Virus record (IMG/VR): IMGVR_UViG_3300032227_000993
Length of the DNA stretch: 64,000 bases
Source: a virus
Lineage: Duplodnaviria > Caudoviricetes
Strand: one strand, 5' to 3'
Under the pieces are notes generated by a model. That model did no database searches, was not told the DNA's origin, and was given only the letters and a program-made list of their open reading frames with translations. The position numbers and the translations under genes were made by a program. The stretch's first letter is position 1; every line of letters starts with the position of its first letter. Shown here in pieces: positions 43,010 through 43,182 of this stretch.

Positions 43010-43164
43010 TTTGTATTTCCTTTTAGGTTAAGTATGCTGGAGTGATTACAACGACCACTTCTACGTTTATCGCAATTAGGACATTTCATTCGTAAGTTAC
43101 ACTCATTTACTGAGTAACCTGGTCGAGAGTTGGTTTTTTGCGGTTTGTTATTGGTGATTGTCAT
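43006..43164 (-). CDS. Possible leader ORF (52 aa, CxxC-x7-CxH) inside the structured RNA
   Basis: RBS AGGAGG; TGA overlaps the downstream ATG. Confidence 0.35.
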   Translation of the reverse strand: MTITNNKPQKTNSRPGYSVNECNLRMKCPNCDKRRSGRCNHSSILNLKGNTK

Positions 43165-43182
43165 AATGCCTCCTAGCATACT
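43031..43182 (-). ncRNA. Candidate rod-like structured RNA (~150 nt)
   Basis: 43153-43182 pairs with 43031-43059 (about 25 bp including several G-U pairs); central CGCAA/TTGCG stem; apical GTTACTCA-GTAAA-TGAGTGTAAC hairpin. Confidence 0.6.

What the first reader, a model, noticed from the sequence alone, without database searches (positions are those of the whole stretch)
43031..43182. Rod-shaped ~150-nt RNA with a long end-to-end helix hiding an RBS and start codon
Seen on the minus strand: 5' AGTATGCT(A)GGAG pairs with 3' CTCCAGCATACT (12 bp, one bulge) and continues ATTATGAC-A-ATCAC with GTGGT-C-GTTGTAAT. That is about 25 bp including several G-U pairs, which argues for RNA-level rather than DNA-level selection. 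Inside are A-rich internal loops, a CGCAA/TTGCG stem and an apical GTTACTCA-GTAAA-TGAGTGTAAC hairpin. It starts just after a TTAATA late-promoter-like hexamer (43184-43189), sequesters the AGGAGG and ATG of a 52-codon uORF, and ends about 20 nt before the start of an exported Ala/Lys/Pro protein. Inference: either a new cis-regulatory leader (uORF-coupled translation switch) or a trans-acting RNA. The closing stem, bubbles and terminal hairpin are loosely reminiscent of 6S RNA, an RNA-polymerase decoy, but no sequence similarity to 6S was recognised.
Basis: partly seen in the sequence, partly recalled or inferred. Interest (0 to 1): 0.7.

Follow-up and report, generated by a model that had tools for sequence, protein, structure and literature searches.

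The report
Fold-back helix closing a small phage gene
The 150-base "rod" is the message of a real, conserved 52-residue zinc-knuckle-like gene of a freshwater giant phage; its two ends pair and cover the gene's own ribosome-binding site, an ordinary kind of self-repressing mRNA structure and not a new free-standing RNA.

Summary
The fold is real: -41.1 kcal/mol, z -4.4 against dinucleotide shuffles. It is less exceptional than that suggests. It ranks 15th of 6722 windows in a scan of this window, and z is -2.3 when only synonymous codons are reshuffled.

The stretch is not a non-coding RNA. It is the leader plus nearly the whole coding sequence of a 52-aa gene (CxxC-x7-CxH) found in about 45 protein clusters from freshwater phage contigs, with dN/dS about 0.15. 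Its stop overlaps the start of the exported Ala/Lys/Pro protein (ATGA).

Across 20 distinct homologous loci only the closing helix is kept: leader GUAUGCU plus GGAG(G) pairing with codons ...CC-(A/G)GC-AUA-CU. The bubbles, the CGCAA/TTGCG stem and the apical hairpin are specific to this lineage.

There is no compensatory covariation, because the 5' arm is almost invariant. However, 8 of 9 substitution events in the 3' core keep pairing (all to G-U or back), and two synonymous third positions inside it never change.

Rfam gives nothing, 6S included. The TTAATA hexamer is not conserved; an invariant TGTCAAC-N17-CGTT (ECF-sigma-like) is.

Best reading (about 0.5): a cis-acting fold-back helix that occludes this gene's ribosome-binding site once the gene has been transcribed. 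It is a new member of a known kind, of modest interest.

The parts
43188..43215 (-). Conserved promoter-like block, TGTCAAC (43209-43215), 17 nt, CGTT (43188-43191). It matches the ECF-sigma pattern of AAC in the -35 element and CGT in the -10 element.
   Evidence: Both motifs are invariant in 20 loci although the spacer and the 6 nt after CGTT vary, and the sequence upstream of TGTCAAC is unrelated between loci (a tRNA gene, or different genes). The block is unique in the window. The ECF pattern is taken from PMC5758882. The transcription start was not mapped.
43169..43182 (-). 5' arm of the closing helix: AGUAUGCU, bulged A, then GGAGG, which is the Shine-Dalgarno sequence of the small gene.
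   Evidence: MFE fold. Positions 2-8 and the GGAG are identical in 19 of 20 loci.
43006..43164 (-). Small gene ORF1: 52 aa, basic, with CxxC-x7-CxH. The stop TGA (43006-43008) overlaps the ATG of ORF2. An in-frame upstream ATG at 43177-43179 lies inside the 5' arm.
   Evidence: about 45 protein clusters, dN/dS 0.15. No family or fold could be assigned.
43031..43042 (-). 3' arm of the closing helix (CUCC-AGCAUACU) inside ORF1 codons H-S-S-I-L. CUCC is the anti-SD.
   Evidence: G, C, A, U, A at 43037-43033 are invariant in 19 of the 20 aligned loci; the only change, A43033 to G in L039, keeps the pair as U-G. The third positions of the AGC and AUA codons never change synonymously, and AUA is the least used Ile codon (19%).
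43045..43058 (-). Inner part of the 3' side (GUGGU-C-GUUGUAAU), which pairs with AUUAUGAC-A-AUCAC (43154-43167) and covers the start codon. Kept only in the window's own clade; other clades pair in shifted registers.
43007..43022 (-). Translation start region of ORF2: SD AAGGA (43018-43022) and ATG (43007-43009), unpaired and A-rich, just 3' of the helix.
   Evidence: AAAGGAAAU is invariant in 19 of 20 loci (AAAGGAAAC in L031), including a four-fold degenerate Gly position. It is unpaired in the folds.
42830..43009 (-). ORF2: 59-aa protein with a Sec-type signal peptide (h-region, then AFA-A) and an Ala/Lys/Pro-rich mature part.
   Evidence: The signal peptide was read by eye, not by a predictor.
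42640..42891 (-). ORF3 frame: conserved acidic-then-helical protein (...EDxDDDYY...GYRRPEL...KLRLVLARKRALERYHEKWG), in the +1 frame relative to ORF2 and overlapping it by 62 nt. It has no ATG, GTG or TTG before the conserved part in this window.
42624..42647 (-). Intrinsic-terminator-like hairpin plus U-run at the end of ORF3. This is the likely 3' end of the roughly 555-nt transcription unit.
   Evidence: Equivalent hairpin-plus-U-run in L033, L001 and L027.

Best explanation
The stretch is the 5' part of a three-gene phage mRNA (ORF1 zinc-knuckle-like peptide, ORF2 exported Ala/Lys/Pro protein, ORF3). It is transcribed from a conserved, possibly ECF-sigma-type promoter whose start site falls at or within about 3 nt of the first base of the 5' arm.

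The leader (GUAUGCU plus the GGAG of the SD) is complementary to ORF1's own codons 41-45. Once RNA polymerase has transcribed those codons, about 150 nt downstream, the mRNA folds back on itself. It encloses all of ORF1 in a loop and buries ORF1's SD and, in this lineage, its AUG.

On the nascent chain the leader forms only a weak local hairpin, so ORF1 can be translated briefly during transcription. After closure ORF1 initiation is repressed. ORF2, whose own SD sits in an unpaired A-rich stretch just 3' of the helix, stays translatable. A paired 5' end would also slow 5'-end-dependent decay.

Shown: the helix, its conservation, the direction of the substitution bias, and the coding nature of the interior. 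Inferred: the transcription start, the order of folding, repression of ORF1, and stabilisation.
For: - Stability: the fold is far more stable than shuffles and persists in 400-560-nt contexts of the window and most homologues.
- Conservation: the closing helix has core pair probability of at least 0.86 in all 19 distinct variants folded (L039 and L040 were read from sequence only), although the interior differs. In the 20-locus alignment, 90% of cells are paired in the true register against 24-47% when slid by 1-3 columns.
- Substitution bias: on a tree built without the helix columns, 8 of 9 substitution events in the seven core 3' positions keep a pair (A<->G opposite U, C->U opposite G). 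By my own binomial estimate, p is about 0.002-0.014 for a chance compatibility of 0.36-0.48.
- L039: the only change in the Ile codon is AUA->AUG. It is non-synonymous but gives U-G. The synonymous AUU and AUC, which would break the pair, are never seen.
- Synonymous sites: the third positions of AGC and AUA are invariant, whereas 17 of the 19 upstream third positions vary, at dS about 0.7.
- Recoding control: leader-to-CDS pairing exceeds synonymous recodings in all 12 lineages tested; the fraction of recodings reaching the native value is 0-0.19.
- Nascent leader: it folds weakly, -3.6 kcal/mol.
- ORF2 start region: unpaired and invariant.
- Precedents for intramolecular SD occlusion: icaR (PMC3868564) and hok tac/fbi (PMC9841398).
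Against: - No pair shows a compensatory change on both sides (0 of 14). The one lineage that changed the 5' arm (L030, U->A) has A->C opposite, which does not pair.
- Both arms have other reasons to be conserved. The 5' arm holds the initial transcribed region, an in-frame ATG that could be a leaderless start, and the SD. The 3' arm encodes protein and lies 22-33 nt before ORF2's start.
- Amino-acid tolerance (for example Ser<->Gly) confounds the substitution test.
- The SD is paired about 70% of the time even in recoded controls, so 'SD hidden' is not in itself unusual.
- Fifteen or more windows in this 64 kb fold comparably.
- In the 400-nt context the helix loses out in L033 and is weakened in L021 and L027.
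- The sequences are related, so the lineages are not independent.
Confidence: 0.5

Rival explanations
1. Incidental complementarity. The two arms are conserved for separate reasons: promoter-proximal and possibly leaderless start plus SD on one side, protein sequence plus the ORF2 translation start region on the other. The helix has no selected function.
For: No compensatory covariation. The 5' arm is almost invariant, so pairing cannot be told apart from plain conservation. The whole last 33 nt of ORF1 has few synonymous changes, including codons outside the helix such as AAC and AAA-GGA-AAU. Recoded controls also pair the SD. Comparable folds occur elsewhere in the window.
Against: A perfect 8-nt complement plus GGAG/CUCC within 150 nt of a given leader is rare by chance, roughly 0.2% for the 8-mer alone by my estimate. 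Substitutions are biased 8:1 towards pair-preserving states. The non-synonymous AUA->AUG is tolerated while synonymous AUU and AUC are absent. The synonymous change nearest the helix (CUU->CUC in L028 and L039) falls one base outside it.
Confidence: 0.25
2. The helix is real, but its main role is as a processing or stability element. A double-strand-specific nuclease (RNase III type) would cut the coaxial helix of about 20-25 bp, detaching ORF1's SD and releasing an ORF2-ORF3 mRNA with a new 5' end. Alternatively, the paired 5' end simply protects the transcript.
For: The window's helix stacks 8+4+8+5 bp with small bulges, and other lineages keep about 20 bp in shifted registers. The icaR 5'-3' pairing both blocks initiation and creates an RNase III substrate (PMC3868564). 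ORF2's start region lies immediately 3' of the helix and is unpaired.
Against: Only about 12-14 bp are conserved in register; the rest varies. No nuclease or cleavage data exist. This reading does not exclude the best explanation.
Confidence: 0.12
3. A DNA-level inverted repeat (AGTATGCT ... AGCATACT) that serves as paired protein-binding or recombination sites flanking the small gene.
For: The arms are an exact 8-bp inverted repeat in DNA. The cassette has different upstream neighbours in different phages.
Against: The conserved block starts about 35 bp upstream of the 5' arm, not at it. The tolerated changes give G-U in the mRNA sense but A-C on the other strand and break the DNA symmetry. 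Both arms lie inside one transcription unit.
Confidence: 0.03
4. A free-standing trans-acting RNA of about 150 nt, possibly a 6S-like decoy for RNA polymerase.
For: Only the general shape in this one lineage: closing stem, internal loops and a terminal hairpin.
Against: No Rfam match at gathering scores over the whole window, and none to any 6S family within 42700-43500 at E up to 10. The interior is protein-coding under purifying selection and its structure is not conserved. No terminator or U-run follows the 3' arm, and the mRNA runs on into two more genes and a terminator 400 nt further.
Confidence: 0.02

Closest known systems
icaR mRNA 5'UTR-3'UTR pairing in Staphylococcus aureus (PMC3868564)
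   Same: A C-rich anti-SD motif far downstream in the same mRNA pairs with the SD region. In icaR this blocks the initiation complex and creates an RNase III substrate. Here CUCC/UCCC pairs with GGAG, extended by a 7-8-bp helix.
   Different: In icaR the anti-SD lies in a long 3'UTR of a monocistronic mRNA. Here it lies inside the last ten codons of the same small ORF, in the first cistron of a three-gene phage mRNA. Nothing has been tested experimentally here.
hok mRNA tac/fbi fold-back and related type I toxin mRNAs such as dinQ (PMC9841398, PMC5066626)
   Same: A long-distance 5'-to-3' interaction closes the message of a roughly 50-codon gene and keeps it translationally inactive.
   Different: The hok family encodes hydrophobic membrane toxins, closes the whole mRNA through its 3'UTR, is activated by 3' processing and has an antisense RNA. 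ORF1 is hydrophilic, basic and Cys/His-bearing. Only ORF1 is enclosed, and no conserved antisense promoter was seen.
Hairpins over translation start regions in phage T4 (genes e, soc, I-TevI, 49) and long-range pairings in MS2 RNA (from my own knowledge, not checked here)
   Same: Phage mRNAs in which secondary structure over the SD and AUG sets when, and from which transcript, a gene is translated. This phage has been called T4-like in earlier notes of this scan.
   Different: The T4 hairpins are short and local, and are relieved by a late promoter inside the stem. Here the arms are 130 nt apart and the only conserved promoter lies upstream of both arms.
6S RNA (Rfam RF00013 and relatives)
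   Same: Only a loose rod-with-bubbles outline in this one lineage.
   Different: No covariance-model match. The stretch is coding, its interior is not conserved, and it has no defined 3' end.

Membership tests
6S RNA | Match to an Rfam 6S covariance model | tested here: not met
   No match at gathering scores in the whole window. In 42700-43500 at E up to 10 there were only two chance hits to unrelated eukaryotic families.
6S RNA | A non-coding transcript with a conserved central bubble between a closing stem and a terminal stem | tested here: not met
   The interior is ORF1 with dN/dS about 0.15. Internal loops and the apical hairpin differ between lineages.
6S RNA | Binds the sigma70 RNA polymerase holoenzyme | not testable with these tools
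   Needs a binding assay.
Intramolecular SD-occluding long-range pairing (icaR type) | The SD region is complementary to a distant downstream segment of the same mRNA, and the pairing is predicted to form | tested here: met
   core pair probability of at least 0.86 in all 19 variants folded, and retained in most long contexts.
Intramolecular SD-occluding long-range pairing (icaR type) | The pairing is conserved among homologues beyond what sequence conservation explains (covariation) | tested here: inconclusive
   Zero compensatory pairs. However, 8 of 9 one-sided events keep the pair, and synonymous sites in the arm are frozen.
Intramolecular SD-occluding long-range pairing (icaR type) | The anti-SD lies in the 3'UTR | tested here: not met
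   The 3' arm is inside ORF1 codons 41-45.
Intramolecular SD-occluding long-range pairing (icaR type) | The pairing inhibits 30S binding (toeprint) and/or is cut by RNase III | not testable with these tools
   No RNA data were available; no RNA run was listed.
hok-type type I toxin mRNA | Encodes a small hydrophobic membrane toxin | tested here: not met
   ORF1 is hydrophilic and basic, with invariant C, C, C and H.
hok-type type I toxin mRNA | A conserved antisense RNA gene overlaps the leader | tested here: not met
   The only plus-strand promoter-like site (43158-43187) depends on the window clade's ATGACAA and is absent from other clades. No Rfam Sok or hok hit.
ECF-sigma-dependent promoter | AAC in the -35 element, CGT in the -10 element, spacer within the 14-17-bp range | tested here: met
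   TGTCAAC-N17-CGTT is invariant in 20 loci while the flanking bases vary. The pattern is as given in PMC5758882. This is a pattern match only.
ECF-sigma-dependent promoter | A cognate ECF sigma factor and a mapped start site | tested here: inconclusive
   No Sigma70_r2 match in five related contigs, but these are only 17-36% complete. No genome is held for the window. The start site was not mapped.
Terminator-bounded small RNA | An intrinsic terminator at the 3' end of the proposed 150-nt RNA | tested here: not met
   No terminator-like site near 43031. The next one on this strand is at 42647-42634, after ORF3.

The most novel reading that the evidence does not exclude
A clade of freshwater giant phages carries a stress-sigma-driven (ECF-type) three-gene cassette in which a whole small gene is enclosed by a fold-back helix. 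The helix acts as a co-transcriptional 'one-shot' gate: the zinc-knuckle peptide is made only from nascent transcripts. The closed, 5'-protected (or RNase III-processed) mRNA then goes on producing the exported protein, fixing a very low ORF1:ORF2 ratio without any trans-acting factor.
Probability: 0.15. Interest if true: 0.5.

Novelty: new member of a known kind. Interest (0 to 1): 0.3.

Why it matters
If the helix works as proposed, it is a compact, protein-free way for a phage to set very different outputs from two overlapping cistrons, with the anti-SD written into the gene's own coding sequence. It would add a phage example to the short list of bacterial mRNAs regulated by pairing between their own distant parts. 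Practically, the result removes a candidate 'new ncRNA / 6S-like RNA' from the list. It also adds a conserved small-protein family (CxxC-x7-CxH, about 45 clusters) and a conserved, unusual promoter to the annotation of these uncultured phages.

Tried and rejected
- Rfam: nothing at gathering scores over the whole window, and nothing relevant at E up to 10 around the site.
- blastn 'distant' of 42600-43700 against GenBank phages: no match.
- tRNA scan of the window: none.
- Whole-genome search: no genome is held for this window.
- Public RNA runs: no RNA holder listed, so expression and transcript ends could not be examined.
- Function of ORF1: Pfam, PHROGs, PDB sequence profile and ESM Atlas gave only sub-threshold zinc-ribbon or HNH-like noise. 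The AlphaFold model had mean pLDDT 52.6 and no secondary structure, so no fold search was made.
- DNA for the most informative 5'-arm variants (P0045, P0043) was not retrievable.
- Sigma70_r2 search in five related contigs: no hit, but the contigs are fragments.
- Promoter regulon: the conserved promoter words occur only once in the window.
- A sigma70 reading of TTGTCA ... TAATAT was rejected because the spacer is 21-22 nt.
- A thermometer reading was rejected because the helix is too stable.
- I considered a programmed +1 frameshift from ORF2 into the startless ORF3. It is weakened because many relatives have an ATG in the ORF3 frame inside ORF2, and more distant relatives are free-standing proteins of 80-102 aa.
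- The local leader hairpin (AUGCU/GGCAU) as a stable alternative state: only -3.6 kcal/mol and no better than shuffles.
- Earlier notes of this scan, searched by sequence: nothing.

Full report
**1. What is at the site**

RNAfold gives one rod closed by AGUAUGCU / AGCAUACU, a bulged A, GGAG / CUCC, then AUUAUGAC-A-AUCAC against GUGGU-C-GUUGUAAU. Inside are A-rich loops, a CGCAA/UUGCG stem and an apical hairpin. MFE is -41.1 kcal/mol, z -4.38 against 200 dinucleotide shuffles, and none of the shuffles folds as well.

- A scan of 6722 windows of 152 nt on both strands, regressed on base composition, puts the candidate at z -3.0 and rank 15, even though its ends were hand-picked.
- With the leader and the encoded protein held fixed and only synonymous codons redrawn from the phage's own usage, the window has z -2.3, and 12 homologues average about -1.7. 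The SD is paired about 70% of the time even in the recoded controls.

**2. It is coding, not a non-coding RNA**

- The 52-codon frame (43164-43006) has relatives at 52-67% identity over its full length (and 96% in one near-identical contig, L021) in IMG/VR and metagenome contigs, and in 45 protein clusters of the large protein collection.
- L24, R25, C28, C31, D32, R35, C39, H41, I44, N46, K48 and G49 are invariant in 28 representatives. This gives a CxxC-x7-CxH motif.
- Length differences are whole codons (50-53 aa).
- For the gap-free last 29 codons the median dN is 0.117 and dS 0.722, so dN/dS is about 0.15.
- No family or fold could be assigned.
- Its TGA overlaps the ATG of the next gene (ATGA) in every locus.
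- The window's copy lies on a contig of up to 361 kb. Earlier notes of this scan call the genome an uncultured freshwater giant, T4-like phage; I did not check that.

**3. The transcription unit**

Upstream of the 5' arm, 20 distinct loci share TGTCAAC-N17-CGTT. Sequence upstream of TGTCAAC is unrelated between loci; it is a tRNA gene in three lineages and different genes in the others.

This pattern of conservation is what a promoter gives, and AAC at -35 with CGT at -10 is the hallmark of ECF-sigma promoters (PMC5758882). It is a pattern match only. The motif is unique in the window, and no sigma gene was found in five related but very incomplete contigs. With such a -10 element the start site would fall at about 43179-43182, that is, on the first bases of the 5' arm. 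This is inference.

No terminator follows the 3' arm. The mRNA should run through three features:
- ORF2 (59 aa, signal peptide, Ala/Lys/Pro-rich);
- a third conserved frame, ORF3;
- a hairpin plus U-run at 42647-42624, which relatives also have.

**4. What is conserved in the RNA**

I collected 21 distinct versions of the locus and aligned 20 of them with 44 nt of upstream sequence. RNAalifold keeps only the closing helix plus a few short local stems. The window's bubbles, its CGCAA/UUGCG stem and its apical hairpin have no counterpart in other clades, whose interiors fold differently.

The closing helix is predicted in every version folded (19 of them):
- Core pair probability is at least 0.86 in the isolated segment.
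- It is mostly retained in 400-560-nt contexts. L033 is the exception, and L021 and L027 are weakened.
- On the alignment, 90% of cells pair in the true register against 24-47% when the partner is slid by 1-3 columns.
- No pair has a change on both sides, because the 5' arm is identical in 19 of 20 loci.

The one lineage with a changed 5' arm (L030, U->A at the eighth pair) has A->C opposite, which does not restore the pair.

**5. Is the pairing itself under selection?**

Three lines of evidence say probably.

(a) On a tree built without the helix columns, the seven core positions of the 3' arm show nine substitution events. Eight keep a pair: A<->G opposite U five times, A->G once, C->U opposite G twice. 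With a chance compatibility of 0.36-0.48, by my own estimate, that is p about 0.002-0.014.

(b) The Ile codon in the arm is always AUA, the least used Ile codon here at 19%. Its only observed change is the non-synonymous AUA->AUG in L039, and in two protein clusters. That change gives U-G, whereas the synonymous AUU and AUC, which would break the pair, never occur.

(c) The third positions of the AGC/GGC/CGC and AUA codons never change, while 17 of the 19 third positions upstream do, at dS about 0.7. The nearest synonymous change (CUU->CUC) lies one base outside the helix.

Against this:
- Tolerance at the protein level (Ser/Gly) confounds (a).
- The whole last 33 nt of ORF1 is poor in synonymous change. 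That includes AAC and the AAAGGAAAU that serves as ORF2's SD, so some of the constraint may belong to ORF2's start region.
- The lineages are not independent.

**6. Mechanism**

My best reading, at about 0.5, is a cis-acting fold-back.
- The nascent leader forms only a -3.6 kcal/mol hairpin that is no better than shuffles, so ORF1's SD and AUG are open while the first 150 nt are being made.
- Once codons 41-45 emerge, the helix closes over the SD and, in the window's clade, the AUG.
- ORF2's SD and AUG, immediately 3' of the helix, stay single-stranded.
- The expected outcome is little ORF1 and much ORF2 from one mRNA, and a base-paired 5' end that should resist 5'-end-dependent decay.

A related possibility, at about 0.12, is that the stacked helix of about 20-25 bp is an RNase III-type processing site, as shown for the icaR 5'-3' pairing (PMC3868564). 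The sceptical rival, at about 0.25, is that the complementarity is incidental. One uncertainty remains open: an in-frame ATG at 43177-43179 inside the 5' arm is kept in all 20 loci and could be a leaderless start. That would be another reason for the arm's invariance.

**7. Comparison with known systems**

It works like the icaR 5'UTR-3'UTR interaction and like the hok tac/fbi fold-back (PMC9841398), but it belongs to neither family. The anti-SD is inside the coding sequence of the same small ORF, only the first cistron is enclosed, ORF1 is not a hydrophobic toxin, and no conserved antisense promoter exists. It is not 6S RNA by any tested criterion.

**8. Verdict**

This is a real, conserved mRNA helix around a real small gene. 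It is a new member of a known kind, of modest interest (0.3). The cis-regulatory one is plausible but unproven.

Noticed in passing
window 42640-42891 (-): A conserved protein frame (ORF3: ...EDxDDDYY..GYRRPEL..KLRLVLARKRALERYHEKWG) follows ORF2 in its +1 frame and overlaps it by 62 nt. In this window, and in L001, L012, L027, L028, L031, L036 and L039, it has no in-frame ATG, GTG or TTG before the conserved part. All loci keep CTAAGTAAT at the ORF2 stop. Many relatives have an ATG in this frame inside ORF2, and distant relatives are free-standing proteins of 80-102 aa, so a non-canonical start (CTG) or a lost start seems likelier than programmed +1 frameshifting. This is unresolved.
   Followed up: partly
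protein P0041 (77 aa): A natural fusion. The ORF1 zinc-knuckle peptide runs directly into the C-terminal helix of ORF3 (...DRIKLRLALARTKALEKYQEKWG), which implies a deletion of ORF2 in that contig.
   Followed up: no
L001 2850-2935, L012 about 2380-2465, L030 about 1500-1560: In three lineages a tRNA gene ends 30-40 nt before the conserved TGTCAAC promoter block. In the window a 63-aa gene sits there, and other genes elsewhere. The cassette keeps its promoter while its upstream neighbour changes.
   Followed up: no
window 41163-41314 (-), 32518-32669 (-), 10839-10990 (-), 30078-30229 (+): These 152-nt windows fold more strongly for their composition (z -3.6 to -3.7) than the finding itself in the window-wide scan. 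The one at 30078-30229 overlaps a structured leader already noted by the scan. The one at 41163-41314 overlaps the Pho-box-like repeat note.
   Followed up: no
window 41920-42509 (-); L038-L040 downstream genes: A rubredoxin (42 aa) and a rubrerythrin (145 aa) lie just downstream of the cassette. In relatives an AhpC/Redoxin-family gene follows it. This is an oxidative-stress gene neighbourhood, which fits a stress-sigma promoter but proves nothing.
   Followed up: no
window 43158-43187 (+): A good sigma70-like site (TTGTCA-18-TATATT, 10 of 12) lies on the opposite strand across the start codon and 5' arm. It depends on the window clade's ATGACAA and is not conserved in other clades.
   Followed up: partly
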